Assembly (NCBI RefSeq): GCF_037042905.1
Contig: NC_087251.1
Location: forward strand, 2,482,001 to 2,546,000
DNA: 64,000 nucleotides
Source: Lytechinus pictus
Lineage: Eukaryota
Direction of reading: 5' to 3'
Under the pieces are notes generated by a model that searched no databases, was not told the origin of the DNA, and saw nothing but the letters and a program-made list of their open reading frames with translations. Positions within the stretch are counted from its first letter, which is position 1. The number at the start of each line of letters is the position of its first letter. Shown here one piece after another: positions 9,886 to 64,000 of this stretch. A program made the translations under genes and the position numbers.

Positions 9886-10175
9886 GGGTGTATTGTGGTT
9901 TAGTAGTTCTGACTCTCGCCTTTCAAACAGAGGGTCACAGGTTCGAATCCTGGCCATGGCATGTTTTCCTTCAGCAAGTAAATTATGCACACTGTGCTGC
10001 ACTTGACCCAGTTGAGGTAAATAGGTACCTGCCAGGATTAATTCTTTGAATGTACATGTACTGAGCGCTGTTGAAAAAGTGGTAGCTGGAGCTGAAGTCA
10101 GGGTAATGATAGCAGCGCTTTGTATTTTCATCTGGCAAAAAGTACTTATATAAATTCTGTTATAATTATCGTCAT
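9886..10175 (+). mobile_element. tRNA-derived SINE, diverged
   Basis: A-box-like TGGTTTAGTAG, B box GGTTCGAATCC, body homologous to 53244-53536 (TCCTTCAGCAAG...GTGCTGCACT...GGTACCTG), AT-rich tail. Confidence 0.85.
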
Positions 10176-11135: not shown

Positions 11136-11764
11136 AACTGGGTTCCAAAAGAAACTTATCAAACTTCACAAGTGCACTACACAAATTCAACTCAGTCAAA
11201 ATGAACAAAATTTTGACACAGGCTAGCTTCAATAATCTTCACTAAGCACATGTCAATAATTAAGAGATTGGTTTAAAGGTAAAGAGACTGTAGCCCCTCA
11301 AATCAACTGGTTCTGGAGTCCAAAATCACAAAATGGCAAAAGAAAGACCAATGAAAATGAGATGGGATTGAACAAACTTACCAGTTTATTAAAGTTCACA
11401 GTATGACCTTTGGTATGTTTAATTGATTGCCTCAATAACTAAGAAATTACAGGAAGTTAAGATTAACATTTTAGACACACATATTGAGGTCAAAGAAGCA
11501 TAATGCATAAATGGACTCAATAGCAATTAAGCAAAGAATGACCATTTGGTTGAGACTGAAACTGAGACTTTTGTGATTATTTATTTTCTGGAACAATTGA
11601 TTTGAGGGGCTACAGACTCTTTGTTATAAACCAATATCTTATATATTGACATGTGCTTAGTAAAGATTAGTGAATCTAGCCTGTGTCAAAATTCTGTTCA
11701 TTTAAATTAATGGAATTTGTGTAGTGAGCTTGTGAAATTTCATAGTTTCTTTTGGAACCCACTC
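11136..11764. mobile_element. Tc1/mariner-like MITE with long TIRs
   Basis: TA|AACTGGGTTCCAAAAGAAACT...AGTTTCTTTTGGAACCCACTC|TA. Inverted arms of about 180 bp (CTAAGCACATGTCAATA / TATTGACATGTGCTTAG; TGTAGCCCCTCAAATCAA / TTGATTTGAGGGGCTACA). Confidence 0.85.
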
Positions 11765-11879: not shown

Positions 11880-14800
11880 CCACTCCTCATCCTACTCCAT
11901 CCTACCTCCTCCTACTCCATCCTACCTCCTTCAACCTCTATCATGTTCTCCCTTCTCCATCCCTCTTACTACTCTCTCATCCTACCAACTCCCCTCCTTC
12001 AACCTTCATCACGTTTTCCCATCTCCACACCCCTCCTACTCTCTCATCCTACCAACTCCCCTCCAACCTTCATCACATTTTCCCATCTCCACACCCCTCT
12101 TACTCTCTCATCCTACCAACTCCCCTCCTTCAACCTCTATCATGTTCTCCCTTCTCCATCCCTCTTACTCTCTCATCCTACCAACTCCCCTCCTTCAACC
12201 TTCATCACATTTTCCCATCTCCACACCCCTCTTACTCTCTCATCCTACCAACTCCCCTCCTTCAACCATCAACATGTTCTCCCTTCTCCATCCCTCTTCC
12301 CACATTCTTGTTCATCCTCCTCCCCTCCTTCAACCTCATGTTCTCCCGTCTCCATCCATCCTCCTACTCTCTCATCCTACCTCCTCCCCTCCTTCAACTT
12401 CTATCATGTTCTCCCGTCTCCATCCCTCCTACTCTCTCATCCTACCAACTCCCCTCCTTCAACCTTCATCACGTTTTCCCATCTCCACACCCCTCCTACT
12501 CTCTCATCCTACCAACTCCCCTCCTTCAACCTTCATCACGTTTTCCCATCTCCACACCCCTCCTACTCGCTCCTCCTATTCTCTCATCCTACCAACTCCC
12601 CTCCTTCAACCTCTATCATGTTCTCCCTTCTCCATCCCTCTTACTCTCTCATCCTACCAACTCCCCTCCTTCAACCTTCATCACATTTTCCCATCTCCAC
12701 ACCCCTCTTACTCTCTCTTCCTACCAACTCCCCTCCTTCAACCTTCATCACATTTTCCCATCTCCACACCCCTCTTACTCTCTCATCCTACCAACTCCCC
12801 TCCTTCAACCATCAACATGTTCTCCCTTCTCCATCCCTCTTCCCACATTCTTGTTCATCCTCCTCCCCTCCTTCAACCTCATGTTCTCCCGTCTCCATCC
12901 GTCCTCCTACTCTCTCATCCTATCAACTCCCCTCCTTCAACCTCATGTTCTCCCGTCTCCATCCCTCCTACTCTCTCATCCTACCAACTCCCCTCCTTCA
13001 ACCTTCATCACGTTTTCCCATCTCCACACCCCTCCTACTCTCTCATCCTACCAACTCCCCTCCTTCAACTTGTGAATTTTCATAGTTTCTTTTGGAACCC
13101 ACTCTATTTTATTGGTTTTAAAACATACAGTATTTGAAACTTTGTTTGTTTTTGTAAGGTATTAGAATGGTCACTGCATGCATATAGTTTTATTTTGTTT
13201 TCTTCATGACTTCCCTTTTCCACTCCTCCTCCTACTCCATCCTACCTCCTCCTACTCCATCCTACCTCCTCCCCTCCTTCAACCTCTATCATGTTCTCCC
13301 TTCTCCATCCCTCTTACTACTCTCTCATCCTACCAACTCCCCTCCTTCAACCTTCATCACGTTTTCCCATCTCCACACCCCTCCTACTCTCTCATCCTGC
13401 CAACTCCCCTCCAACCTTCATCACATTTTTCCATCTCCACACCCCTCTTACTCTCTCATCCTACCAACTCCCCTCCTTCAACCATCAACATGTTCTCCCT
13501 TCTCCATCCCTCTTCCCACATTCTTGTTCATCCTCCTCCCCTCCTTCAACCTCATGTTCTCCCGTCTCCATCCGTCCTCCTACTCTCTCATCCTACCTCC
13601 TCCCCTCCTTCAACCTCATGTTCTCCCGTCTCCATCCGTCCTCCTACTCTCTCATCCTACCTCCTCCCCTCCTTAAACTTCTATCATGTTCTCCCGTCTC
13701 CATCCCTCCTACTCTCTCATCCTACCAACTCCCCTCCTTCAACCTTCATCACGTTTTCCCATCTCCACACCCCTCCTACTCTCTCATCCTACCAACTCCC
13801 CTCCTTCAACCTCTATCATGTTCTCCCATCTCCACACCCCTCTTACTCTCTCATCCTACCAACTCCCCTCCTTCAACCATCAACATGTTCTCCCTTCTCC
13901 ATCCCTCTTCCCACATTCTTGTTCATCCTCCTCCCCTCCTTCAACCTCATGTTCTCCCGTCTCCATCCCTCCTACTCTCTCATCCTACCAACTCCCCTCC
14001 TTCAACCTTCATCACGTTTTCCCATCTCCACACCCCTCCTACTCTCTCATCCTACCAACTCCCCTCCTTCAACTTGTGAATTTTCATAGTTTCTTTTGGA
14101 ACCCACTCTATTTTATTGGTTTTAAAACATACAGTATTTGAAACTTTGTTTGTTTTTGTAAGGTATTAGAATGGTCACTGCATGCATATAGTTTTATTTT
14201 GTTTTCTTCATGACTTCCCTTTTCCACTCCTCATCCTACTCCATCCTACCTCCTCCTACTCCATCCTACCCTCTTACTACTCTCTCATCCTACCTCCTCC
14301 CCTCCTTCAACTTCTATCATGTTCTCCCGTCTCCATCCCTCCTACTCTCTCATCCTACCAACTCCCCTCCTTCAACCTTCATCACGTTTTCCCATCTCCA
14401 CACCCCTCTTACTCTCTCATCCTACCAACTCCCCTCCTTCAACCTTCATCACGTTTTCCCATCTCCACACCCCTCCTACTCGCTCCTCCTATTCTCTCAT
14501 CCTACCAACCCCCCTCCTTCAACCTCTATCATGTTCTCCCTTCTCCATCCCTCTTACTCTCTCATCCTACCAACTCCCCTCCTTCAACCTTCATCACATT
14601 TTCCCATCTCCACACCCCTCTTACTCTCTCATCCTACCAACTCCCCTCCTTCAACCTTCATCACATTTTCCCATCTCCACACCCCTCTTACTCTCTCATC
14701 CTACCAACTCCCCTCCTTCAACCATCAACATGTTCTCCCTTCTCCATCCCTCTTCCCACATTCTTGTTCATCCTCCTCCCCTCCTTCAACCTCATGTTCT

Positions 14801-15300
14801 CCCGTCTCCATCCGTCCTCCTACTCTCTCATCCTACCTCCTCCCCTCCTTCAACTTCTATCATGTTTTCCCGTCTCCACACCCCTCCTACTCTCTCATCC
14901 TACCAACTCCCCTCCTTCAACCTCATGTTCTCCCGTCTCCATCCCTCCTACTCTCTCATCCTACCAACTCCCCTCCTTCAACTTCTGTCATGTTCTCCCT
15001 TCTCCACCCCTCCTCTCTCATCCTACCTCCTCCCCTCCTTCAACTTCTATCATGTTCTCCAATCTCCATCCCTCCTCCTCTCTCCATCCTACCTCCTCCC
15101 CTCCTTCAACCTCATGTTCTCCCGTCTCCATCCCTCCTCCTCTCTCATCCTAGCTCCTCCCCTCCTTCAACCTCTATCATGTTCTCCCATCTCCACCCCT
15201 CCTCCTCTCTCCATCCTACCTCCTCCCCTCCTTCAACTTCTGTCATGTTCTCCCTTCTCCACCCCTCTTCTCTCATCCTACCTCCTCCCCTCCTTCATCC
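11880..15300. repeat. Pyrimidine-rich minisatellite (about 61-67 bp variant units) in three blocks
   Basis: Core ACTCTCTCATCCTACCAACTCCCCTCCTTCAACC with alternative tails. Interrupted at 13069 and 14073 by copies of the roughly 150-bp segment starting at 11729. Confidence 0.96.
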
Positions 15301-15401
15301 TGATCACGTCTTCTCATCTCAGTACTCCTCTGACTCTCTCTTTCCACTGTCTTTCCCTTAACAATCTCTCTTATATTTACCTCATGCCAAATTCTTTCAA
15401 G

Positions 15402-21606: not shown

Positions 21607-22086
21607 AGGAGAAGTTCACCCTGACGAAAAGTTTATTGTAAAAATAAAAGAAAAGAAAAAAAGATACTGGTGAAGGTTTGCGGAAAATCCATGAAATATT
21701 AAGAAAGTTATTGGAAGTTTTTAATGTAGGACGTCATAAACGAGCAGCTGCCCCATATGATGTGCATAGATTTCATTTTTTTAATTGTTCCTGATGATTT
21801 ATTTTTCATTTTCTTTTTAGGAGCGAGTGTGAATTGATTTGTGTATGGATATATGGAAGGTACAATAACAACCATTTTCAATTTTCTAAAAAAATGACAT
21901 TTAATTGATTTTCTACTATGAGATATGTAAAAAAAAGCTGCTGGGATATGACGTCACAAATCAAATAATTCAAACTCGAATAACTTCTTTCTTCTTTGAT
22001 GGATTTTCCTCAAACCTTCCACAATATTTTTTATTAATTTTTCTGTTAATTTTTCAATAAACTGTTTGTCAGAGTGAATGTCCTCT
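21607..22086. mobile_element. Kolobok-like MITE
   Basis: TTAA|AGGAGAAGTTCACCCTGAC...GTCAGAGTGAATGTCCTCT|TTAA. Homologous, in inverted orientation, to 31797-32281. Confidence 0.82.
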
Positions 22087-23920
22087 TTAAACTATTATTT
22101 TTCCTGCATTGGTAATTTATTAGATTCAAATATACATTAAAAGGTCATTACTGTCCCCAATTCTTTTTTTTATATTCAAATTGACTTATTTATTGAGTGG
22201 TACTGTGCCTTCTTGCAAAAGGTGTATCATGTATTTATATAGTGATGCCTTTTATTACTTCATCTTAGCATTCTGCTGTTATCTATTTAGCACCCTCTAT
22301 TGACCAAAGATAAATTGCTGCCATGATTTTTGTGTTCATACTGGTTTTGAAGTCTGCCTTACGTCAAGTTGGTTTTAATAAATGCTGAAAAAAATAGAAA
22401 ATATTGGTCAAGTCAAACTCTCAAGTGAGGATAGTGAAATTTTATTAAAAGCTTTTCTGATAAGATGATAGCAAATTAAATGTTTTTTTTTCCACTGGAA
22501 TAGTCAAAATTTAACAAGAACCAAACAATGTTTCATCCAATAGTGAAAGAATTGTGAAAAAAGAAAGGTCTTTAATAATGAAAATATAATCTGCTTCACT
22601 TTTATTCTTCTCTGTACAATGTTTTCAGTATGATATATACTGCATACATTAGAACAAGTTTACAATTTATACAATGTATACAATATGTTTACCTAGTCTG
22701 TTTTGTAGTTGCCTAACAGTTACTTCAATTAAAGATGAGATGATCAGGAGCGAACATTCATATAGCTCATTTTGAGTCGCTATTTACAGGTTCTGTTGGT
22801 ATTACTAGTTCAATAATTAATCTTAACCCTCACTACCAATAAAGATATAAATAAATAGAAGTGAAATTAAGAATAGAAAATAAATGTGTAGAATATAAGA
22901 AGGTTGATTAATGATTAGTAAAAGTAAAGTTAATAAATGAATGATTGGATGGATTAGTAAAGCACACTAATACAATTAAAAATATTGTATCAATTTTTGA
23001 GATATTATAAAAAGTATGTCAAAATAAGGCGAAAAGTGGGTACCTTTCAGAGTATCTGGCTTCAGCTGTAGTTCCCTTCATGAATAGGGACTATTTAGCT
23101 GTAAGCTATACTCCATGATTGAATTAACTACTCCCAAGGTTTTCACCCCAGCAAGGAAATTACCCCAAATCACTAAACTATGTTACCTCGTTAAGCTTCC
23201 CCACTACTCTATTGGGAACACCTCGTGAAAATGAAGAAAAGAGGAACGAAAACAGACGATATTATGACACACCTGTCATTTACAGCCAAACACTTCTACA
23301 AAACGATCTCCAACTCTCTTCTTGTTTTCTTCAAAGTTAATTTAAAGTTCGTCCAAATGACGTCTTCTCCTTTCATACCATAAACATCCCTCTCTGTCTC
23401 TCTTTCTTTCTCTCTGTCTGTCACTCTCTTGTTCATATGATACGTCTCAAAATTAATGTGTAGAAACAGAATCACAAGCGGTAGATGATGAATTAGATAA
23501 GTGGTGGAGTTTTTCCTCCCTCTTTGCTCCAGGACGGCTTTATCGGTTTGCGCTGAGGATGGATGTTAATTTGCGGTACATGGCAGCATATAATGAGGCA
23601 AACTTTGATGACTTAATCATTGATTATCACCTTTGCAATGCCAGCATGCCAGGATGGCAATGAACTCTTACACGCACTTCTATGACTCTGTTTTTCTTAC
23701 CAAGCTACTTTAATTCATTTTAGGCCAATATTCTAAATAATAAAATGTTTTTCTCTCATTGGTCATAAGTAAATCAAGGTATAAAATATAGTTTCATCTA
23801 TCATTTTTTTGGTGAAAATTAGGTTAGACCTGGATGGACCTTACCTTTGATGTGAAAGCACATAGGCGGGTTTAAAATGTTAGGCTTGCCTCTAGCTATG
23901 ATGTGAAAGGACATGAAGTT

Positions 23921-24140: not shown

Positions 24141-24671
24141 CGCATACATTCGTAATTCCGAAGGTTCGGATATTCCGAAGGTTCGTTATTCCGAAGGTTC
24201 GTATTTCCGAAGGTTCGTAATTCCGAAGGTTCGTTAGTCCGAAAACGAAATAAGGTTCGTAATTCCGAAGGTTCGTTAGTCCGAAAACGAAGTGAGGTTC
24301 GTAATTCCGAAGGTTCGTTAGTCCGAAAACTAATGATTAACGAACCTTATTTCGTTTTCGGACTAACGAACCTTCGGAACAACGAACCTTATTTCGTTTT
24401 CGGATTAACGAACCTTCGGAACAACGAACCTTATGTCGTTTTCGGATTGACGAACCTTCGGAACATCGAACCTTATTTCGTTTTCGGATTATCGAACCTT
24501 CGGAATAACGAACCTTCGGAATAATGCCACAAATGTTCGGATTAACGAACCCTTTTACGTTTTCGGATTAACGAACATCGAGGTATAGGCAATTTACGTG
24601 TTTCGGAATTACGAACCGTCGGAATAAAGAACCTTCGGAATTATGAACCTTCGGAATTACGAAGTGTAACC
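24141..24671. mobile_element. Foldback-type element built from inverted arrays of a roughly 15-bp repeat, probable 8-bp TSD
   Basis: CTGTATGG flanks both ends (24133-24140, 24672-24679). Left half is TTCCGAAGGTTCGTWA repeats, right half is the reverse complement CGAACCTTCGGAA; orientation switches near 24335. Confidence 0.88.
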
Positions 24672-30507: not shown

Positions 30508-31097
30508 AGGTCAAGTCCACCCCAGAAAAATGTTGATTTGAATAGATAGAGAAAAAGAAAACTAGCATAATGCTAAAAAAAATCATCAAAATCGGATGTA
30601 AAATAAGAAAGTTATGACATTTTAAAGTTTCACTTATTTTTCACAAAAGAGTGATATGTAAATGAGAGTCGATGATGTCCCTCACTCACTATTTATTTTG
30701 TTTTTTATAGTTTGAATTATACAATGTTTCATTTTTTACAGATTTGACATTGACAATAAGGACCAACTTGACTGAACCATATAGTATTAAACAATGCTAA
30801 ATCCACATGTTCAGGGAGAAATTAATCATTGTTTCACTTGACAATGAAGAAATAATTAGAATATTCATATTTCATATAGTAAAATACAAAAGAAATAGTG
30901 AGTGGATGACGTCATCAGTCAGCTCATTTGCATACTGACCAGGATGTGCATATAACTGTTTTGTGAAATTAAGCGAAACTTTAAAATGACATAACTTTCT
31001 TATTTTACATCTGATTCTGATGAAATTTTCAGTGTTATGCTTGTTGGATTTTTCTCTTTTTATTCAAATCAACTTTTTGTTGGGGTGGACTTTTCTT
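30508..31097. mobile_element. Kolobok-like MITE with long TIRs
   Basis: AGGTCAAGTCCACCCCA...TGGGGTGGACTT; inverted GATGTAAAATAAGAAAGTTATG / CATAACTTTCTTATTTTACATC. TSD is degenerate. Confidence 0.82.
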
Positions 31098-31796
31098 TTT
31101 ACTGCAGGGCTGCACTAAAACAGTCTGCACTAAACAGTAAGAGCAGACCATGCATATATCTTTTATTAACACCCTTCAAACTGTCTTGGTAAATGCACTG
31201 GCCAATGGGAAGCATTTAGTTTTACATGCAAGCATGGACCTTCAACAACATGATGCAAGCAACAAGTGACCACTGACTGGGAGGAATATTGGCCCAGATT
31301 AAGCTATTGCTCCCTTCCAGTCAATCTCTGGTTCATATGCCTGGTGCGGATCTGGCCCATGCCTGGTGCTTCTAAACGCAGTGTGAGAATAGCATGGACT
31401 ATTTTGGCCGTGACCGAAGCCAATTCATAACTTATCTCCAGATAATATGTTATGACTTGGTGTGAGTCAAGCTCAAGCGTGGACCAGCACCAGGGGTTGT
31501 ACTAGTTTTCAGTGAAGTTGTGTGATATCTCATCTGTCAGAGGTCAAAACTGTTTCAGTGATTTGGGATTTGTGCTACAGGAAAGCAAAAACATGATTTC
31601 TTGAGCCGGAATAATATTTTAAACTGTGTTTGAAAATATGAGTATAGATAATCTTCTACAATCTGGTGGTGGTATCATCAGTAGTAAAGAAGGATAGGAG
31701 CCCTCGTTTTTCACAATTTTCAAGGAAACTGGGTAAATGAGAATAGATTTATCTCTAGGAATCCAATGCCTCTTGTCAACATCATGTTGGAGTTAA

Positions 31797-32281
31797 AGCA
31801 GAAGTTCATACTGACAAAAAGTTATTGTAAAAATAGCAGAAAAAATATTTTTAAAATATGGTTGAAGGTTTGAGAAAAATCTGTTAAAAGAATAAAAAAG
31901 TTATTCGAATTTTAATTATTTGATCTGTGACTTCATATGCAAGCAGCTTTTCTACACATCGTATGGAAAAATTTAATGAAAAGTCATTTTCTCAGAAAAT
32001 TGAAAATGGTTTTTACTGTACCTTCAGTATATCAATACACAACTCATTTCACACCCGTTCTTTAAAAGAAATTTTAAAATAGTCATCATGAACCATTAAA
32101 AAATGCAATTTATGTATTTTATAATTATATTACATGGGGCAGCTACTTGTTTGTGACGTCACAAATCAAAATCTTGAAAGTCTAATAACTTGAATGGATT
32201 TTCCTCAAATCTTTCTCTAATATTTTTTATGATTTTTCTGCTGTTTTTACAACAAAGTTTTTTTCAGTGTGAACTTCCCCA
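31797..32281. mobile_element. Kolobok-like MITE, same family as 21607-22086, inverted
   Basis: TTAA|AGCAGAAGTTCATACTGAC...CAGTGTGAACTTCCCC. Internal ATGGGGCAGCT...TGACGTC is the reverse complement of GACGTCA...AGCTGCCCCAT near 21730-21756. Confidence 0.78.
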
Positions 32282-32613: not shown

Positions 32614-33100
32614 AGGTGGTTTCAGACCGCCTCGAAGTTCGCCAGTTCCAGGTATTCTCTGATCGGGAAATTTACCCCGATCAGAAAATACCAGGTATTT
32701 TGGCGATGTGAAAGCAAACTACGCGTAATATCCCCGAAAGAAAATACCCGATAAATAGTAAGTACTTGGCGAAATTACGAGAACTTTCGCGGGGATTTTT
32801 CCAAGGTCGTTGGTATTTTGGCGGTCTGAAAGCAAATTACGGGAACTTTGTGCCCAGCGTGTCGTTGGGTGCGGCGCCGTGGGTGGCTGCTGGGCTAGTG
32901 ATTTTGAATCTCGCGCCTTGCTTGCTTATCAGACCATACTGCGCATGCTCGTAACTTCAGGAACTACTTCAGGAACTTATCCCGAAGGGTATGTTTCAGG
33001 GCGGTGTGAATGCAGGAATAATTAATGGGTATTTTTCAGCCTAAAAAAGTTCTCGTAATTTAACGGGGATTCTTGTGATCGAGGCGGTTTGAAACCACCT
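32614..33100 (+). mobile_element. Harbinger-like MITE family B, copy 1
   Basis: AGGTGGTTTCAGACCGCCTCGA...TCGAGGCGGTTTGAAACCACCT; inverted copy at 61588-62059. Confidence 0.9.
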
Positions 33101-33131
33101 ATTATTGCCAAAATCAGGTAGATAGTAGGCC

Positions 33132-35307: not shown

Positions 35308-35701
35308 AACCCCTTTCATAAACCCATTTCATAAACCCATCCTCCAATTAGCCGCCTAAGAGTAATGCAGATAATTCAATAAAAATTGCATTCACAAACT
35401 CTGAAAATAATCCGCACAATTTTTACGAGTGCCCGTCCTGAAAAAGGCGGATAATCATCATGGCAACCGCACACACCCCCTCCGATGCGGTTGTGTTGGA
35501 AAAGGGTGACCTTGTGACCGCACCATGGCAATTATCCGCATTACTTTGGAAACGCGTTCATAAAGTCAAAATCTGGTCCCGATGCCGCTATTATGCGGAT
35601 AATTGCAGCATCAAAATAATGCGGATAACTCTGGTCCTCCTCCGATTTTACGACCAAATTATGCTGCTATTAGTCGCATAATTGGGTTTATGAAAGGGGT
35701 A
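35308..35701 (+). mobile_element. PIF/Harbinger-like MITE family A, copy 2
   Basis: TTA TSD on both sides, near-identical to 29161-29540, with a local duplication of TTTCATAAACCCA. Confidence 0.92.
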
Positions 35702-38700
35702 TTATCCACATAGTTGCATAGTATAGTATATATCCAGGGAAAATTCCCTTGTACACATACATGTATGGTCAAATTATAGGCAATGGGGGATGGAGGAAAT
35801 AGTTTCTTCAGTAAATTATATAGAATGACATTCCCACATGTGGTCTGCCTATCTGATCATAACACAACCATTAAATTATCACCAAGTACAAGTTGCTCGC
35901 TTTGCTCAACAAAATGTGTTTCATAGTCTGAAAAGCCAGACTTGAACAAATTGAAAAATATATGATGGCCTATATTGGTAGGAAGAGCCATGTTTTATTG
36001 ACACTTTATCATTTAATCATCATTATCAAAGAATTTCACTTTTGTTCCTTGATTATGATTACTTTGAAATAAAACCTGATAACAGTTTTTATAGGCCCTC
36101 ACAGCTCAGACTTTATTTTCAATTTCATTTTTTCAACCATAAAGAATAGTATCATTAGTTTTGGGCTATAACAAAATTGTAATTATTTTCATATGGTTCA
36201 ACTCATAACATCAACTTGATAATAAAGAAATGCATAATGATAAAGAACTATTAAAACCAAACCATTTTTCATAAAAAAGGTAAGAGTATAATTTGAAAGA
36301 GAGTTATAATTTCTGGACTCTTTACGAGAAAAGGGGGTCTACTTGTTAGACTAGTGATCTGATTTGTGAGATGTCAGTGAATCTGGTGTATAGCAGATTG
36401 ATGAGTTAAATTCATTATGACATCCTGATACAGCTGTAAGGACAGACAAGCAAAGATTGGAAGAGATGGAAGATGAAGATATGAAAAAAGAAAGGATGAA
36501 GCCACCAGCAGAGCTTGGTTTCCCACGCTCACCCATCATCATCATCTCACATTCCTCATCATACAAACATCATTCCTCAAGTGGACTCAGTAGTTTACAA
36601 CTTTCAGACTTCTCTATTCCCCAAGCATCATCACAATGTGTATCTGCTCATTGTAGAGGGTTTTTTTTCTCACTACATATCATATCAAATAATACAGTAC
36701 AAATCAATGGATGCAACATGAACCTGTGTAGGAGTATATTTGAAACAGAAAACAGGAACAAATATCAATAGACAAATGTGATAGAGCAAGGCAACCAAGC
36801 TGATTAGGGGGGTTTTATTTGGGAAGTCGACCCCAACAAAAAAGTTGATATCTATAGAAAGAGAAAAATAAAAAGGCATTATGCTGAATATTTCAATTAA
36901 AACAGATGCAAAATAAGAAAGTTAAAACCTTTTTTAAATTTTTCTTAGTGTCAAGAGCATCTTTCAAATCTACCCCCTAAAAAGTAGTTTTTTTTTGTTT
37001 TTTTTTGTATATAGGTATATATGTAGACTCTACCTTAACTTGAAATTCGTAATCATGGAGACAAATGGATGGAATTTTGTGATCCTTCTTAGTATATTAG
37101 ATTATGAAAAAAAAACTGCTTCTAGCCACAGGATACAATAATTCTAAGTAGTACAAAGCAAGGGGGAAACCAGACAGAAAGAGAATTCTGAATGTTAGAA
37201 TATAAGCCAAATCTTAAGTTTCAAGATTATATAATCAAGAAAAAGAAATTGTTCCAGACTGTTGTAGGATCAAAGCCAGACTCTCTTTCTAAATGTATCC
37301 TGCTATGTTCATAACTGATAAGTCCAATATGAGTTATTTTTAGTATGAAGATATGAATCTTGTCTCCAGAAAGGAAAGTCCTATGGATTATAATGATACA
37401 TCAGATATATCCCCCTCATCACTTTCTCATTGTTTAGGCCTCCTACTTTACCCTTATTCACACTTGCAAATTCTTTTTAAAGTTTACAAATATATCCTAT
37501 TAACTTTACCCTGATATAATAATGATATTAATAATAAAAATACATAGGATTTATATAGCGTCTTCTCCATTTTTGATAAAATGCTCAAGGCGTATAGAAA
37601 ACATAAACAAAAGGTAAAGATACAGTAAGTACAAGAAAAGGCAAGAGTGCTTTGTTTTCCATTTATGGGTGATTTTTAGGACTGATATTTCTTCCATTAA
37701 TTTTTTTATAGAAATCCACAATAATAGTAATAAAAAATGAATTGATATAATCCTTAAAACCATGCAAAAGAATAACAGTTGACATAACTTTTTTTACTTT
37801 GGTCGTTCTTGATAAGCTATAGTAATAAGAAATGTTTCCAAACAGAAATCTAACTTTATAGTTCATTCTTGTTCATTCTTAAGTCCAACGTCTTAAAACC
37901 TACATCAGATCATATTAATAGTTAAAAAGGTGGTACTGTGAAGAGTCATTATTATTAAGCAGGTCTACTGATCTTGATTTTGATTGCGAATGTGACAAAG
38001 ATAACATATAATTATCTGTTTAAATAGGCATTATTAAAGGTAATTGAGATGTAGATGACTAAGCATGCCTGTACTTTCTTATTTTCTAGGCCAAAACTCA
38101 TCTTTAATTTTATGTTCAAAACGGTGCGTCCTTTGTCATTTTCATTGTTTGTAAAATAGTGTTTTAAAGGTGCATATGAGCATTCCAAAGTGCTCAAGTG
38201 TGTTAACAATGAGAATTTCAAAACGCTCATTTACATTCGTATAATGAAGTTTAAACATGCTCTGCGTCTCCAACCATTTCTTCTGTATATCATCCAGAAA
38301 ATAATACTAATAAACCATAGTCAGGATGTCAATGAGTAATAGCTAAATGCCATGTCATGTTACTTCAAATACCCCTTTCACACTCGCATTCTGAACCAGT
38401 TTAATTTTTTATGGTTGATGTGAAAGGAGGAAGTCTATGAATGTGAAAGCAAATCTTTTTCACTGAGGGTCTAAGTAGGCCTATAGTACATGATTATTCA
38501 CTGTACATTTAAAACAAAGTATCTTCATAGCTTTGCATATAATTTACAATTTAGTAGTCAAATGCATCAGGTTTATAAATATTTTCAACAATTCTATGTA
38601 AAGTCAATGAACTTGTGTTGGAATAATGAAATGAACTATGAAAAGTGGAAATTGTCTCCCGTTTTTCATAACGTTGTACATAAAAATTTGTTTAACTCTG

Positions 38701-38914
38701 ATAAAAGATGATGGATGGAAAGAGACTATAACATGAAAAAGTGAATGTAGGCTTACAATAGAGGTGATCAGAAAATGGATAGCAATTGGGGAATAAAGAA
38801 GGAGAAACTAAAAAGAGACAGAAGAGTACAAAACATTCAAATACAAGAATACAGTACAACAAAGAATGAATTAGAGAAGGATTTCAGTAGAATTAAAATT
38901 CAACCTAATATAAC

Positions 38915-38942
38915 CATGGACCTATTACGTAATAGGTCCATG
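38915..38942. mobile_element. 28-bp perfect palindrome with 7-bp TSD (P/Galileo-like footprint or micro-element)
   Basis: ATATAAC|CATGGACCTATTACGTAATAGGTCCATG|ATATAAC. Confidence 0.8.
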
Positions 38943-39907
38943 ATATAACTTAAGAAGTATAGATTTCAAAGATGGCAGAAAACAAAACAAAAGAAAAAAA
39001 GAACAATATTTTTAAGAAATAGTAGTAGAAAAGTTTTCATTTAAACCAGGAACACAAACAGATCAATAGAGTATAGAATATTTGACAAATTTGTATGATA
39101 TTAGTGAGGGAATAATCGCGGTAAAACTCATTTTTTAATATTTGATATATTTTCCCCTGGAGTTATTCCCTTTAATAGAGCAAGAAGTGGTCAATGACCT
39201 GAACAGCATGGTGAGGGGGATCATAAGGGATTATATATGAGGATGAGTGAAAGGGGGAGTTAGACAGCTGGCATTCATTCAATTCAAAACACTCTCCAGA
39301 TGAGACAAGATGTGTTTACTTGATGACATTACAACTCATGTCAACATATCACTTTGAATAGCATGGAATTTGAAATCTTTGGGAAACCTGCTGATTGTAT
39401 GACTTTTCATGTGTTACAGTGGATAATAATTATAACCCAAAACGTTATTAGGCCATATGTTTATTCATTCATTCAAGACTTGTGAAATAAGAAATTCATA
39501 CACGAATAATGTAGATTTATGATTAGATTTGTCTTGTAATGTGAGGATTTCCCTTTTTTATGGGCGAAAAGGGATATGGAATTATTTCATTTGATGATTT
39601 GAATATTCTAATTTACCATGTTGAATTATTTATTTACTTTGTTATTTGGTACTTCTAAATCATGGTGTCTCCTTACCAGAATGCCTGGAGCATATATCAC
39701 TAGTGCATTTTGTGATTTCCATTTTTGTGTGTGATATTATGTGAATACTCTTGTGATTTGTCCAGGTGTTGAATGAAAATTAAATTGGTGTTATCTTCTT
39801 CCTTTCTTGTTCTCTTCTTTTCCTTTCTGCTTTCCATTCCCATTCTTTTATCTCTACCTTCCTTTTTATCTTTCTTCCCCACACCCTTCCTTTCTCTTTT
39901 TTTTCAG

Positions 39908-39987
39908 ATGAGGAAACTGTTTCTACATTCAGAGGTACTGATCCTGGTTTGCAGAGGATAAGGGTCAGATCAGCCATCAGAAGATAG
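39908..39987 (+). CDS. RAD51B: RAD51B terminal coding exon, ending at TAG
   Basis: Long pyrimidine tract then ttttcag|AT, phase-1 compatible with the previous exon. Translates (D)EETVSTFRGTDPGLQRIRVRSAIRR*. GTDPGLQxIxVR resembles the C-terminus I recall from non-mammalian RAD51B. Confidence 0.82.
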
Positions 39988-43587: not shown

Positions 43588-43985
43588 TACCCCTTTCATA
43601 AACCCAATAAAACCCAATTATGCGGCTAATAGCAGCATAATTTGGTCGTAAAATCAGAGGAGGACAAGAGTTATCCGCATTATTCTGATGCTGCTATTAT
43701 CCGCATAATAGCGGCATCGGGACAAGATTTTGAGTTTATGAACGTATTTCCAAATAATGCGGATAATTGCCATGGTGCGGTCATAAGGTCACCCTTTTCC
43801 AACGCAACCGCATCGGAGGGGTGTGTCCAGTTGTCATGACGATTATCCGCCTTTTCAGGACGGGCGCTCGTAAAAATAATGCGGATAATTTTCGGAGTTT
43901 GTGAACGCAATTTTTATTGAATTATCCGCATTACTCTTAGGCGGCTAATTGGAGGATAGGTTTTATTGGGTTTATGAAAGGGGTA
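43588..43985 (-). mobile_element. PIF/Harbinger-like MITE family A, copy 3, inverted
   Basis: TGA|TACCCCTTTCATAAACCCA...GAAAGGGGTA|TGA; interior is the reverse complement of 29161-29540. Confidence 0.92.
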
Positions 43986-51600: not shown

Positions 51601-53243
51601 ATTTTATTAATTGTTGATGTTGACTTAATTGCTCCCATTTTATAGTGCATGTAGCTGTTGAATTAATTATCATTTTGCCAGTCATTTTTGTGGATGATTT
51701 TGTGATTTCCTGTCTTTGTCCTATGAAAGTAATTGAACCCTCGGAAATTAAATCAACTATCACAACCTTCGATATCTCATATTAAGTGGTTACGCTCCAA
51801 CATTTATTCATTGTGGTTCATTAAGAGTACACAAATATTTTTCTTTATTCTGGTAAATGAATGTCATTCATGAATAATTCTTGTATATAAAACATTCATC
51901 CAAAGTGGTCGAAAGTATCCATTGGTGTGTTTTCTTTATATACGAGCATAACTCTGATTCATGAATATTCATTTCAGATGTACTGGCCTGCTGAAATTTA
52001 CTGTTAACTTTCATTGAATCCTTGATTTTGATTGGCTCCTGAGTATTGTTACCATGGTCACGATGGTAGTTACATTCATATATTAAAGTTGTTGTTTTTT
52101 TCTCCCTTACAAAAGTATCAGGTTCATTGTTTCAAAGAATTCAGACAGCTGAATGGAGGGAGGAGGGGGGGGGGGCATTGATAAGAATCCAATGATGATA
52201 TTATGAGAAGAAGAAAGAATGGTAAAGGGTTAGGTCAAATCAAATGTAGTTCCACTCTCATCCAATCAAATGCATGCATTGGGATCGGTACTCCATTAAA
52301 AAAAAAATTGTGCTTGAACCTCAAACACAAGTCTCTTTCTCTTTGAATTAGACACTGGACTGTTTCGGAAGTGAGAAAATTGAACGTTTAAATTAATTTG
52401 AACTTGGGTATTTGTTTTGAAGTGGAAGGATCATTTTTTTATTGGTTCATTGATGTTATCAAGTGCTATATCTGTCAGAATGATTATAACCTTATAAAGT
52501 TCAACACAATGTCAACAGTACTGCTGTGCATGGAGTAAAAATTGGGTTTTATAGCAGAATATGGGAAAGAAACTTATAAATAGAATTCTGTTGCATCTAT
52601 TCTTTGCCTTCATATTGTATTAAATGTAATTGATTGATAATGACAACAACAGGATAACACTGTCCAGACAAGATTAAATCATAGTATTGTTCATGGAAAG
52701 TATAAGTGCCTGTTAGTATGAACAACAGTTGTTGGCGACGATCTCAGATCATGACCACTTACAATCCATGACATGACAAGTATAGGCCTATAACTACAAA
52801 TATTAAAGAAAGAAATCTACTGTATTCAAACTTTTGAATTTTATATTTCACCCATGAAAACCGATTAACATAATAAATTTCTTTTTATCATGAAAATCAA
52901 TTCCCCCTCTAAATTACTCCCCCCCCCCCCCTTTTCCTCACTCCTCACTTATCTCTCAATTTATTTTCCATTAGATCTCATTCTATCTTATCATTAATCA
53001 TAACAAGTTTAATCTATTTGATTGAATTCATTTCAAATTTAATTGAATGAAATTAAATTCATTTTTCTTCTTTTCACTTGCATAATCCATTCAATATAAT
53101 CTATAATTCATTTAAAATCTTTCTTCTAGTTATGCTTTCCGAACATATTCATAAGGGTTTCCTGAAAATTGACAAGCTATTTTGAATGAAAGCTGGAAAA
53201 GCACATGAATACTAATATGTTATATATGTTAATCGGTTTTCCT

Positions 53244-53536
53244 GGAGCGCTGTGACCCAGTGGATTAGTCTTCTGACTTTGAAACAGAGGGTCGTGGGTT
53301 CGAATCTCAGCCATGGTGTAATTTCCTTCAGCAAGAAATTCATCCACATTGTGCTGCACTCAACCCAGGTGAGGTGAATGGGTACCTGGCAGGAATTTAT
53401 TCCTTGAAATGCCACCGCGCTGTAAAAGGCTGCGGGGCTAAAGCCAGGGTAATAATATCCAAGTCCTTTGGAAGCGCATAGGGACGTTATGACATAATGT
53501 GATCTGCGCTATACAAGAACTGCATTATTATTATTA
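53244..53536 (+). mobile_element. tRNA-derived SINE, full length
   Basis: A box TGACCCAGTGG, B box GGTTCGAATCT, core GTGCTGCACTCAACCCAGGTGAGGTGAATGGGTACC, (ATT)n tail. Same family as 9886. Confidence 0.9.
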
Positions 53537-53994
53537 TGTCTAAAATAGTAACACTCTGTCTTTCAGGTGATGTAGTGGAAGTAAAACAAAATGCCTGTTT
53601 TTATCAACTTCTGGACACTATTCTTGCTTTCTAGATAAATTTGTGTTTTTTGGGGTTTTTTTATAGAATGACTTTAAAAATGCAAACTCTATCTTTCTTT
53701 ATTTTCAGATTGATAACAAAACAAAGTTCTTCTTGCACAGGTGACATGAATGATGAACCATCTTGCCTAGTCTTGAACTAGACACACCTTAATGTAATAA
53801 GAACTTAATGTGATTGACCTGGTAATAAGGCTACTTATTGACCTGATGAATCATTATAGTATCTAGAATATTTTGATGATTTGATAAAAGGTCACTTTAA
53901 AGAATCCTGCTTCCTGATTGGATTATAGTTTTACGAGACAATAAAAATAAAATAAAGTTGTGGTCATTTTAAAGGTACCATAACTCTGTCAAAT

Positions 53995-54021
53995 CATGGA
54001 CCTATTACGAATAGGTCCATG
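53995..54021. mobile_element. 27-bp palindrome with 7-bp TSD, second copy of the 38915 element
   Basis: GTCAAAT|CATGGACCTATTACGAATAGGTCCATG|GTCAAAT. Confidence 0.8.
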
Positions 54022-55485
54022 GTCAAATTTAGGAGTTTGCTTTCTTATTTCTGAACAGGTTTGTGACAGCAAAGGGCAAAAGGTGATGAACTGGCATAAT
54101 AAACCAAAAAACAAAACAAAATTGAACTGAAACAAAACGAGGCAAAAATTTAAAGCAAAAGTTACATGAATACATAGATTTCTCCAATGATATTTGCATA
54201 ACAAATAAGATAAACCTCAATGTTTGAACTAAGATTTCTTCAAAATAAAATCTTCCATTAATTATCCTTGGGTACATTCATGTATATCCTACGCACCTGT
54301 ATTGAATGATGGATATTATCCCGGTATAAACTATGATTGAAATAAGTAAGGTCTACACACTCTGTTTTCCTAGATTTTATTGGCTCACTTTGTAATTAAG
54401 AAACTTGACACATGTTTGTTATCTATTGGGTGCTAGCCAATATTTTCATTTAGTATCAAGCCTTTCCCAGAATTTTAATAAAATTCAAAATATATTAGGG
54501 AAGCGGGGGTAATAAAATATAACTTAGTCACATCACATTACCTTTTTAAAGGTCGGGTACAAATTTTGTAGCAAAATTAACATTTCCTTTAATTTTCTAA
54601 AGTTACTTATTACAATCCAGTGGCAAAATGAGCCGAAATTTTCAGAGGTTCAGACATGGAGTATGGGGAAACATTTCTAAAGAGCTTCAATCAAACTAAG
54701 TGAGCATTTCAATTTTTTAACATTTTTCATATAAAAGTCTAATTTTGTAAATGATGTGGACATAATAGTCAGAAAAGTAATATTATATCGTATTCCACAA
54801 TTTATCCTTTCCTTTTTTTATTTTCTTTTATTATATTTTTTCTTGGTTGTGTAACTTTAGGAAGTCCATGGCCCCCCCCCCCTTCCCCCCCCCCCCCCGT
54901 CTGTAAGTCAGTGTTACAAACTTTATTGAAATATATTTGTAGGATATTTGAACCCTACGACCAATTAACTGTTGACTGCTCCATGTGAGGCAGTTCAAAA
55001 GCTGTGTTCAGTCAATAAAACAAAATCTTGGAAGTTTCACATGAGTTTACCTTAGATTTACATGGCTTTCCAGAAAATTTGGTCATCTTTCATTTGGTTG
55101 ATATTTATACTGAGATAACCTTTACAACATATTTATGTTACCCCTTTAATATGTTGTAGTATACTTTAAGTGTTCTCCACTTTCTTCTTCCTTAGGCCTA
55201 TATTGAGGTATAAATTTTGATTGACTTCATTCCTTAGTAGTATAGTATCCTGGTTGCCTTGGTTTTCTGAGAACTAATAAAAAATAATAATTGTTCGATT
55301 ATCACAGAAGCTATGTTCACATGAAACAGTCAGAAATCTAAACTTTAACTCAAAGTTATTTACATTAATCAAATATTGTAGTTTAAGCCTCTCCTAAAGA
55401 TGTTTCTCTGACAGTTCTAACGTCCATTACGTCATACACTTTAATGTACTAAAACCGTTGTGGTATGGATGAAAATAAATTACAA

Positions 55486-60265: not shown

Positions 60266-61587
60266 TAAAAGTAATACAGACATAGAGTTGATGGTCAAGG
60301 ACACAATATTCTGGTTTTACACTCCTCATATTTTTATTTTGTCATGATCATTATTTTCTCGTGATTAATTTACCATAAGTATGATTACTTCCTATCTTTG
60401 TTATGTAGATGAAAGGCAAGGTTATTTGAATGATTGTTTTTTTTTCTCATTTGAATGTAATTAGTTATGCTGCTGAAGTGTAGACTATCAGCTAAGGTTC
60501 AATGAACTCCTGTGGGGGTTTCTTTACTTCCCCTCCTGTAAGACTTTAACTTTGATGAGCGAATGGCTTTTCTAATTATTAAATTGACCACAGTTATTAC
60601 GATGTGGTCACTTCAATCCTCAGGATATTGGTTGTTGGGCGTTTATTACCCTTTCAACCAACTTTCTTATTTGTCAATAAATATGACAATAATATTGTAA
60701 ATGTTTACACTCTAAATTCTATGGATTGTAAATCAAAAGTTAGGGTATAAAAAATGATAATCATTTGAGTAAAATATGATCAAACTGAAATTTGTTGGAT
60801 AATTTCCCATACAGAAAACATGTAATTTTTTTTTTTTTTTTTAAGTGGTGATGTGACATAATCTGCCAACTTTGTGCATATTCTTTCCCTAAAATTATGT
60901 TTAACTTTGATATTCTAAACTTCATTAATTTTCACATGATTTAATAAAATTTTCTGTGTTATGCTTGTTTCATTTTCCCCTATTGATCCAAATCATATAA
61001 CTTTCATCCTGTAGTAATACTAACTGCATTTATATCTATGTTTTAATAGACAACCATATATCATATATGAATGAGTGTATAAAAACAAGAAGAACAAGCG
61101 CCAGATCTGTAGAGTAGTTGCTGAAAGAATTCATATTTATCTGAAACAGGCCTTGGAAAAGACTTCATCAGCTTACACCTCATTTAATTGCTCTAAGAAT
61201 AAGAAAGAGGTTATTCAACTTGGGTCTTATCTTTCTTCAGTGTGTATTATCCAAATGCCCTTCATATTTTCAGGAATGATATTTGATTCATTAAATTCTA
61301 GGATTAAAATTTCTTCATAAAGAAGGAGTATAATCATGTACATTTGCAATTAAAGATATCACTGAGCTATTGAGAACTAGAAAACAGATGCTTGGCAAAT
61401 TTCCAAAGTTCAGCTGCATTATTTCAGTTTACTTGTGCTGGATTGTGAAATATAATTGTCACTCATGTCTTAATTGCTTATACAGCTAGTCATTAGTTTG
61501 AGATTTATTATATCATACTTAGGTTAATGTAATTGTGGTTAGTTGTTAGCAGGGGCATATCCAGGATTTCTGAATTTAGGACACAAA

Positions 61588-62059
61588 AGGTGGTTTCAAA
61601 CCGCCTCGATCATAAGAATCCCCGTTAAATTACGAGAACTTTTTTAGGTTAAAAAATACCCATTCATTATTCCTGCATTCACACCGCCCCGAAACATACC
61701 CTTCGGGATAAGTTCCTGAAGTTATGAGCATGCGCAGTATGGTCTGATAAGCAAGCGAGACGCGAGATTCAGAATCACTAGCTCAGCAGCCACCCACGGC
61801 GCCCGCGCCCACCTACACATTGGGCTAAAAGTTCCTGTAAATTGCTTTCACATTGCCAAAATACCTGCGACCTTGGAAAAAAATCCCCGCGAAAGTTCTC
61901 GTAATTTTGACAAGTACCTACTATTTAGTGGGTATTTTCTTTTGGGGAGATTACGCGTAATTTGCTTTCACATTACCTGGTATTTTCTGATCAGGGTAAA
62001 TTTCCCGATCAGAAAAAATATCTGGAACTGACGAACTTTGAGGCGGTCTGAAACCACCT
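61588..62059 (-). mobile_element. Harbinger-like MITE family B, copy 2, inverted
   Basis: AAA|AGGTGGTTTCAAACCGCCTCGA...GAGGCGGTCTGAAACCACCT|AAA; reverse complement of 32614-33100. Confidence 0.9.
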
Positions 62060-62767: not shown

Positions 62768-63160
62768 ACTGAAATCTAATTTAGCTATGGCAGGCCATTC
62801 ATACCACTTTAAGGAGAGGGGTTGACAAAAATCCCATTTAGCTATAGCAGGCCATACATACCACTTTCATGAGAGGAGAGGACTGTCTCACTTAGCTATG
62901 GCAGGCCATTCATACCACTTTCACCAGAGGTATTGACTGAAATCTTGTTTAGCTATGACAAGCCATGCATACCACTTTCACCAGAGGGGCTGACTGAAAT
63001 CTTGTTTGGCTATGGCAGGCCATGCATACCACTTTCACCAGAGGGGTTGACTAAAATATTGTATAGTTTCGGCAGGCCATGCATACCATTTTCACTAGAG
63101 GGTTGACTGAAATTTCACTTAGCTATGGCAGGCCATGCATACCACTTTCACCAGAGGGGA
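62768..63160. repeat. Tandem array of seven units of about 57 bp
   Basis: Consensus TTAGCTATGGCAGGCCATGCATACCACTTTCACCAGAGGGGTTGACTGAAATCTTGT; units start at 62781, 62838, 62892, 62949, 63006, 63063 and 63119. Confidence 0.93.
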
Positions 63161-64000
63161 TGATGGTTTTGACTGAGTAATAGAGGTTTAAACTCATTGT
63201 AGTGATCTCGTGAGGCCTAAAAATGCCAAATTCTTTTGAACGCGCAATTCTTAAGAAAATCCATTTGGGTGAACTTTGAAGCTCTATAGCAAAAAAATCA
63301 AGCACATGGGTCCATGTTAATTTGCATATTCAGAATATTCAGTTGCTAAAGTACCTATGTGCAAAGTTTGGTGAAAATGACAAGGATTTAACTTTAACCG
63401 TGGAACATGGACCTCGCAACTCTCTGTGTGAACTATCTGAACTTTACCTCAATGTCCAAAATAATTGTGAAGAAGTGTATAGAAACCTTGGATATTACAA
63501 TTAATTAAAAATACATTTGATCTTAGTTTTGTATGTGATATCTGATATGCTTGCCTCTCAAGAGGTATACTGACCAGATAAAGATCAGTAGTGATCTACT
63601 TTTATTCTTGATCAATCATAAATCCATATCATTCTAGACATACTCCCTAAATTTCATAGATCTAATGTGTCTAGTTGATCTCTGCATTTAGGTTTGAACT
63701 CCAAAAGAGTTTTTTCAAAGTTTAAAGATTATAAAGAGTTCCACTGATAACTTTATATGCACAGCGAAATATAGATTCATTTTGAATGTATTCATTAAAT
63801 AAAAGTAAGATTTAATGAGGTACTCAAAAGGGGAAGCAGGCCTATGTGCAAAACACTAAAATATTTGTTAAATTGTAAATATTGAGAAAATTGTCTCTAA
63901 ACATTTTGATAAGTGAGCGTGAACGCACCTTTCCTTATATGTGCCTGTGTGTTTATCTTCTACAATTAGTTGATAACAGACCGAAGAATTGACTCATGTT

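What the first reader, a model, noticed from the sequence alone, without database searches (positions are those of the whole stretch)
38908..38949. 28-bp CATG-ended palindrome between perfect 7-bp duplications: candidate excision scar of a P/Galileo-type transposon
Seen: CATGGACCTATTAC-GTAATAGGTCCATG is a perfect palindrome flanked by ATATAAC on both sides, and it recurs at 53995 with a different TSD. Known: Drosophila P elements end in CATG and are cut with 17-nt 3' overhangs, so end-joining leaves both TSDs plus roughly 14-17 nt of each TIR. Galileo (P superfamily) makes 7-bp TSDs at a GTANTAC-like palindrome. Both TSDs here fit RT-NNN-AY, and the central ACGT is self-complementary, so two overhangs could anneal there. 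Inference: this is the scar of a recently active P-superfamily family, or a TIR-only micro-transposon.
Basis: partly seen in the sequence, partly recalled or inferred. Interest (0 to 1): 0.72.

Follow-up and report, generated by a model that had tools for sequence, protein, structure and literature searches.

The report
P-type transposon excision scars
The 28-letter palindrome is most likely the scar left when a cut-and-paste jumping gene of the fruit-fly P-element type left this spot, and a related family of such scars in another animal suggests these enzymes do not all cut at the same depth.

Summary
Observation confirmed, with one correction: the second copy (53995) is 27 nt (15+12), not the 28-mer. 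Both sit between exact 7-bp duplications, far beyond chance. A related organism (runs X1-X4) carries the palindrome at about 150-265 times single-copy depth, including the same 27-nt form at about 10%. A sister family with the same first 11 bases, in another animal's DNA, gives 73 distinct scars, 55 with exact 8-bp duplications. Their arms stop at 22 nt, the commonest forms are 22+22-2 and 21+21-2, and some have templated fillers. This matches published lab P-element junctions (17+17-2, 16+16-2; PMC2895639). Best reading (0.8): end-joined long overhangs left by excision of a P-type transposon, cut at least 15 nt deep here and about 22 nt in the sister family. No parent element, transposase or empty allele of the window sites was found, so P membership is inferred. 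The scar type is published, and this scan noted it before in this genome (e1-7810740). The 22-nt depth is the new point.

The parts
38908..38914 (.). Left target-site duplication of scar 1 (7 bp)
38915..38929 (+). Left terminal arm, 15 nt; the last two bases (CG) are shared with the right arm
38928..38942 (-). Right terminal arm, 15 nt; the 2-nt overlap gives the 28-nt palindrome (15+15-2)
38943..38949 (.). Right target-site duplication of scar 1
53988..53994 (.). Left target-site duplication of scar 2 (7 bp)
53995..54009 (+). Left terminal arm of scar 2, 15 nt
54010..54021 (-). Right terminal arm of scar 2, trimmed to 12 nt (27-nt core)
54022..54028 (.). Right target-site duplication of scar 2

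Best explanation
Each palindrome is an excision footprint of a P-type cut-and-paste DNA transposon. (1) The element inserted with a 7-bp staggered target cut and duplicated the site (duplication shown; insertion inferred here, shown for the sister family by empty paralogues). (2) Its transposase later cut one strand at each element tip and the other strand well inside the terminal repeat, leaving long single-stranded element tails on the host chromosome (inferred from Drosophila P chemistry). (3) Host end-joining joined the two tails, most often by annealing a self-complementary dinucleotide (CG here: 15+15-2 = 28), or after trimming one tail (15+12 = 27) (inferred from junction anatomy). The scar is inert. 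The inner cut lies at least 15 nt deep in this family (15-17 all fit) and about 22 nt deep (23 not excluded) in the 8-bp-duplication sister family.
For: Two copies with different exact 7-bp duplications and different core lengths. Related organism: depth over the palindrome is 149, 225 and 265 times that of the orthologous single-copy contig in X1, X2 and X4; loose ends at both edges have low agreement (0.42-0.48), i.e. many different flanks; a 1-base deletion at 38927, equal to scar 2 reversed, is in 6-7 contigs per run at 8-10% of depth. Sister family: 55 of 73 site rows have an exact 8-bp duplication and 6 have one mismatch; target consensus GT-n-R-Y-n-AC. Among 41 rows shorter than 42 nt the longer arm is never above 22 (12 rows at 22, 10 at 21). 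A uniform-deletion null of the 42-mer expects 12.9 of 34 clean rows above 22 and 0 are seen (P 3e-10; 0 of 17 distinct types against 4.7 expected, P 5e-4). Templated or complex junctions keep the duplication (L035, L079, L099). Empty paralogues: L064 for L073 (97.8%) and L057 for L042 (96.7%). The experimental P table shows the same classes, with 16+16-2 in 14 isolates and 17+17-2 in 5 (PMC2895639 Table 1). A natural 27-bp 12+15 BuT5 footprint is published (PMC3355041).
Against: No parent element or transposase was found: none in the window, and no whole genome was available. The empty site was not seen for either window copy; the orthologous contig replaces 38884-39042 (159 nt) with 141 letters that the tool did not print. 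For the window family only two core types were seen, and the 28-mer dominates. The cap evidence comes from a different family in a different organism. The sister family's repeat sequence beyond base 22 is unknown, so the cap is measured against the 42-mer, and a hairpin-tip-directed deletion null was not modelled. Some hAT families also make 7-bp duplications (PMC4455052 passage). Contig depth is not a copy number, and X1-X4 are one sample.
Confidence: 0.8

Rival explanations
1. The 28-mer (and the 42-mer in the sister family) is itself a mobile, TIR-only micro-transposon moved in trans. Shorter forms are later decay at the palindrome centre.
For: One form dominates: the 27-nt variant is only about 10% of depth in X1-X4, and the perfect 42-mer is 26 of 73 sister rows. 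No long parent was seen. Both window copies fold into stable hairpins (z about -6.5 to -6.9).
Against: Decay of a 42-mer should often leave one arm above 22 nt, yet 0 of 34 do. Complex templated junctions sit between intact duplications. The same modal palindromes arise de novo after P excision in the lab. Drosophila P carries internal transposase-binding sites besides its terminal repeats (PMC7776569 figure legend), for which 28 bp leaves no room (inference).
Confidence: 0.08
2. Excision footprints, but of a transposase outside the P superfamily that also cuts deep inside its own ends.
For: No transposase was recovered, and 7- or 8-bp duplications are not unique to P (hAT with 7-bp TSD).
Against: The long staggered cut is described as a distinguishing P feature (PMC7776569). 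CATG ends, 7/8-bp duplications and GT..AC targets match P, 1360 and Galileo. hAT enzymes leave hairpins on the flank, not element tails (own knowledge).
Confidence: 0.07
3. Extreme internal-deletion derivatives made by aborted gap repair or microhomology deletion between the inverted repeats of a resident element, with no fixed cut depth.
For: SDSA followed by end joining is the commonest outcome in wild-type flies (PMC2895639 passage). Microhomology is present at many junctions.
Against: Aborted synthesis should give a spread of longer arms that share internal sequence. Products longer than 52 nt were outside the search.
Confidence: 0.04
4. Chance palindrome or assembly artefact.
For: One sister locus (L072) is a mirrored contig, probably an assembly artefact.
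Against: Expectation below 1e-4 per window, two copies with different duplications, and high-copy presence in independent data.
Confidence: 0.01

Closest known systems
Drosophila melanogaster P-element end-joining footprints (PMC2895639 Table 1; 17-nt staggered cut, PMC7776569)
   Same: Duplication + up to one full tail + short microhomology or filler + up to one full tail + duplication. CATG ends. The commonest two-arm products are perfect palindromes made by 2-nt annealing at or next to the tail tip.
   Different: 7-bp rather than 8-bp duplication in the window family. The terminal sequence differs after CATG. Tails are at least 15 nt here and about 22 nt in the sister family, against 17. 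These are natural high-copy scars rather than lab products.
27-bp BuT5 footprint at the D. mojavensis 2s breakpoint (PMC3355041); BuT5 is a P-associated MITE (PMC3698922)
   Same: Natural 27-bp remnant made of 12 bp of one end and 15 bp of the other, the same split as scar 2.
   Different: Single copy, 9-bp exchanged duplications, non-palindromic ends, parent known.
Galileo and 1360/Hoppel (P superfamily, 7-bp duplications; PMC3698922, PMC4168063)
   Same: 7-bp duplication; target ends resemble GTANTAC/GTATTAC.
   Different: No evidence here for long foldback repeats or for sequence kinship. The flanking ANAGT/AANGT-type motif is only weakly met at the two sites (context). No Galileo footprint passage was found in PMC4168063.

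Membership tests
P superfamily DNA transposon (parent) | Transposase with THAP, P-type RNase H fold and GTP-binding insertion | not testable with these tools
   No genome held. 139 window ORFs of 62 aa or more gave no hit above a Pfam cut-off. No parent appeared in viral or prokaryote scans.
P superfamily DNA transposon (parent) | 7-9 bp target-site duplication | tested here: met
   7 bp at 2 of 2 window sites; 8 bp exact at 55 of 73 sister rows.
P superfamily DNA transposon (parent) | Terminal inverted repeats starting CATG as in D. melanogaster P | tested here: met
   P terminus as printed in PMC2895639 Table 1. Only the first 4 bases are shared with it.
P superfamily DNA transposon (parent) | Palindromic GT..AC-type target preference | tested here: inconclusive
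   Window n=2 fit RT-NNN-AY. Met in the sister family: G 60, T 59 of 110 symmetrised counts at positions 1 and 2.
P superfamily DNA transposon (parent) | Internal transposase-binding sites and subterminal repeats | not testable with these tools
   No long copy recovered.
P-type excision footprint | Both duplications kept around only the two element tips | tested here: met
P-type excision footprint | Heterogeneous junctions with microhomology, blunt joins and fillers | tested here: met
   Two types in the window family; 17 clean types shorter than 42 nt plus filler types in the sister family.
P-type excision footprint | Arm length capped at the overhang length (17 nt in D. melanogaster) | tested here: inconclusive
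   Window family: the longest arm seen is 15, from too few types. Sister family: a cap exists but at 22, not 17.
P-type excision footprint | Empty or full-element allele at the same site | tested here: inconclusive
   The orthologous contig does not align across site 1 and its letters were not shown. Empty paralogues were shown only for sister sites.
MITE (mobile TIR-only unit) | Homogeneous size, with evidence that the short unit itself moves | tested here: inconclusive
   One form dominates, but variants and a capped junction spectrum argue against it. Mobility cannot be tested here.

The most novel reading that the evidence does not exclude
P-type transposases do not share one cut depth. 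Two animal families with the same first 11 terminal bases leave tails of about 15-17 nt (7-bp duplication) and about 22 nt (8-bp duplication), against the 17 nt measured for Drosophila P. Accumulated natural scars then give each family's cleavage geometry, and the host's end-joining spectrum, straight from genome sequence. A still bolder reading, a mobile 28-bp unit, is listed under rivals at 0.08.
Probability: 0.55. Interest if true: 0.65.

Novelty: new member of a known kind. Interest (0 to 1): 0.45.

Why it matters
The long staggered cut is the oddest feature of P transposition. [quoted passage not shown] If scars report the cut depth, one can map how it varies across the superfamily and test how the looped-out terminal DNA in the transpososome scales, starting with a predicted 22-nt cutter. 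The scars also record excisions, which repeat annotation normally misses, and warn that tiny TIR-only 'MITEs' may be dead scars. The single scar in the window has no evident function.

Tried and rejected
No parent in the window: no other end within 3 mismatches of the 15-nt arm is paired; 50185 and 41030 are unpaired and at chance level by my rough estimate. No transposase or other Pfam hit above cut-off in 139 stop-to-stop ORFs of 62 aa or more with low-complexity frames left out; no Rfam hit. A crude exon scan named no host gene. Viral contigs: 0 hits for the sister terminus, 0 for the two-arm pattern, and 12 hits for the 15-mer, none with a second arm. Prokaryote genomes: 0 and 1 hits; the single hit is the same non-family sequence as L021. 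The longer-looking end at L040:1643 was first taken for a parent but is a 22-nt arm abutting what looks like a LINE 3' tail (tail recognised from own knowledge). Records behind the metagenome loci are not held for further search. Rows dropped before counts: L021/L031, L022, L039, L104 (no duplication, unrelated centres). The low word share of X1-X4 (0.05) was not used as evidence until laid. A paper search for the 11-base terminus gave 12 papers, 10 listed, none about transposons by title.

Full report
OBSERVATION. The sequence is as described: a perfect 28-nt palindrome at 38915-38942 between two copies of ATATAAC. A second copy at 53995-54021 lies between two copies of GTCAAAT. It is 27 nt, with arms of 15 and 12 nt, so it is not the same 28-mer. 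These are the only two short inverted-repeat elements between exact 7/8-bp repeats in the window. 0 of 60 simulated windows gave one with 12-nt arms, and the analytic expectation is below 1e-4. The window is AT-rich (about 35.6% GC), repeat-rich and without recognisable genes: no Pfam hit above cut-off in 139 ORFs, no Rfam hit, one tRNA-like call. Earlier scan notes call this genome a sea urchin; I did not test that label.

THE SAME FAMILY ELSEWHERE. Four runs of one sample (organism A) shared 5% of words with the region. Laid on 36500-39950, they align along most of it at roughly 90% identity, so they come from a related organism or a distant haplotype. Depth over the palindrome is 149, 225 and 265 times that of the orthologous contig in X1, X2 and X4. 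The tool warns that this is not a copy number, but loose ends at both edges have only 0.42-0.48 agreement, as expected for many different flanks. A one-base deletion at 38927 occurs in 6-7 contigs per run, 8-10% of depth, and turns copy 1 into copy 2 reversed. The 27-nt form therefore recurs. Only 12 of 62 indel rows and 40 of 180 substitution rows were shown, so other forms may exist. The orthologous contig skips 38884-39042 and has 141 unprinted letters there, so the empty allele is neither shown nor excluded.

A SISTER FAMILY. 115 of them, from 12 assemblies, carry a different terminus that shares the first 11 bases and then runs to 22 nt. Their flanks average 45% GC and have no BLAST match to the window, and none of the loci holds the window's cores. 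Four flank ORFs were scanned: three hit Pfam (a neurotransmitter-gated channel domain, an endonuclease, a PH domain) and one did not. I read this as animal DNA from another organism. Prokaryote and viral scans gave nothing relevant. Clustering by flank gave 76 sites and 77 site/length rows; 4 non-family rows were dropped, leaving 73. Of these, 55 have an exact 8-bp duplication, 6 have one mismatch, 2 end at a contig edge and 10 do not match. Of those 10, one has an exact 7-bp duplication, two keep the 8-bp duplication around an extra partial arm (L079, L099), one is a mirrored contig (L072), and six are unexplained or complex. Empty paralogous sites confirm insertion at two of them at about 97% identity (96 junction queries).

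The junction spectrum is the key result. The perfect 42-mer (22+22 with a 2-nt GC overlap) makes up 26 rows, the 40-mer (21+21, CG overlap) 9, and the 24-mer (17+11, 4-nt overlap) 6. The rest are blunt or filler joins such as 22+18, 22+15 and 22+13. Among 41 rows shorter than 42 nt, the longer arm never exceeds 22. Random central deletion of a 42-mer predicts 12.9 of 34 clean rows above 22, and none is seen (P 3e-10; by distinct type 0 of 17 against 4.7, P 5e-4). Limits: the repeat beyond base 22 is unknown, so 23 is not excluded; the pattern cannot see arms below 11 nt or cores above 52 nt; and a tip-directed decay model was not simulated.

MECHANISM. Drosophila P transposase cuts one strand at the element end and the other 17 bp inside the terminal repeat (PMC7776569, passages and section 6 of the paper). 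End-joining of the tails left on the chromosome gives duplication-arm-arm-duplication products. In Rad51-deficient flies the commonest two-arm products were 16+16-2 (14 isolates) and 17+17-2 (5), along with blunt, trimmed and templated-insertion joins (PMC2895639, passages and the section holding Table 1). The sister family reproduces this pattern shifted to 22 nt. The window copies fit it as 15+15-2 and 15+12. Shown: anatomy, dispersal, heterogeneity, and the cap in the sister family. Inferred: the parent, its enzyme, the excision event, and the cut depth for the window family (at least 15; 15, 16 and 17 all fit, depending on bases 16-17 of the unseen repeat).

RIVALS. A mobile TIR-only unit (0.08) explains the dominant form but not the cap or the templated junctions. 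A non-P enzyme with a similar cut (0.07) cannot be excluded without the transposase; 7-bp duplications also occur in hAT (PMC4455052, passage). Aborted gap repair without a fixed cut (0.04) predicts shared longer arms, which were not seen. Chance is excluded.

COMPARISON. It works like a P footprint. Membership is met for duplication length and terminal bases and is untested for the transposase. P makes 8-bp duplications, and 1360 and Galileo make 7-bp ones (PMC3698922, passages). Galileo's target consensus is GTATTAC/GTANTAC (PMC4168063, passages). A natural 27-bp 12+15 footprint of the P-associated MITE BuT5 is published (PMC3355041, passages). The zebrafish THAP9 preprint gives no overhang length other than 17 nt in the passages seen (PMC10983969). 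PMC3814204 (passages) added nothing. Nine searches (listings only unless named above) showed no report of these termini, of genome-scale P-type scars, or of a different overhang length. The library lacks most subscription journals and Repbase, and no supplements were read, so the families may already be catalogued.

EARLIER NOTES. I recorded my reading before the first look-up. Note e1-7810740 reached the same reading on another window of this genome, including the idea that scar lengths report cut depth; e1-7826970 describes a similar 36-bp fungal relic. These are unchecked AI notes and not independent support.

VERDICT. Real, and most likely a P-type excision scar (0.8). It is a known kind of structure in a new family and host, so interest is moderate (0.45). 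The part worth following is the apparent 22-nt cut in the sister family, which would make cut depth a variable trait readable from genomes.

Noticed in passing
   Followed up: yes
L040:1643-1665: A lone 22-nt arm directly abuts what looks like a LINE 3' tail, 330 bp from a 42-mer that lacks matching duplications; possibly a LINE inserted into a scar or captured at the break.
   Followed up: partly
L040, L060/L068, L062, L083: Sister scars with unmatched flanks (L060/L068 seen in two assemblies); possibly joins of ends from two different insertions, i.e. rearrangement breakpoints.
   Followed up: no
L004/L018/L020 and L073: The same position in paralogous copies of one repeat carries a 40-nt core in some copies and a 42-nt core in another; either independent events or later loss of two bases.
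   Followed up: partly
L049:1501 and L065:327: Two scars sit 6 bp apart in what appears to be the same repeat sequence, suggesting a target hot spot.
   Followed up: no
L039:1-100: A hairpin with arms of about 42 bp contains the window family's 14-nt arm on both sides but has no duplication; treated as non-family.
   Followed up: partly
window:38913-38946 (table 5c): One contig in X1 and X3 appears to carry two palindromes in tandem, separated by a further partial arm; possibly nested scars.
   Followed up: no
window:1-64000: TACATGTA occurs 8 times against 2.3 expected from base composition, in line with earlier notes on Tc1/mariner-type scars in this genome.
   Followed up: partly
window:4437-4937, 11199-11703, 24182-24663, 30513-31092: Foldback or MITE-like elements with long inverted arms; the one at 24.2-24.7 kb is built of 16/42-bp repeats.
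   Followed up: no
window:29173-29557, 35333-35718, 43610-43963; 32706-33114, 61574-61973; 21651-22090, 31793-32081: Three interspersed repeat families with two or three copies each, the first two at mostly over 90% identity.
   Followed up: no
window:1294-3930, 11925-15301, 62768-63163: Strand-skewed minisatellite arrays with periods 36/41, 65/67 and 57.
   Followed up: no
window:28758-28829: tRNA-Arg-like call on the minus strand, probably the head of a tRNA-derived SINE; SINE-like sequence also near 9930-10060 and 53240-53520.
   Followed up: no
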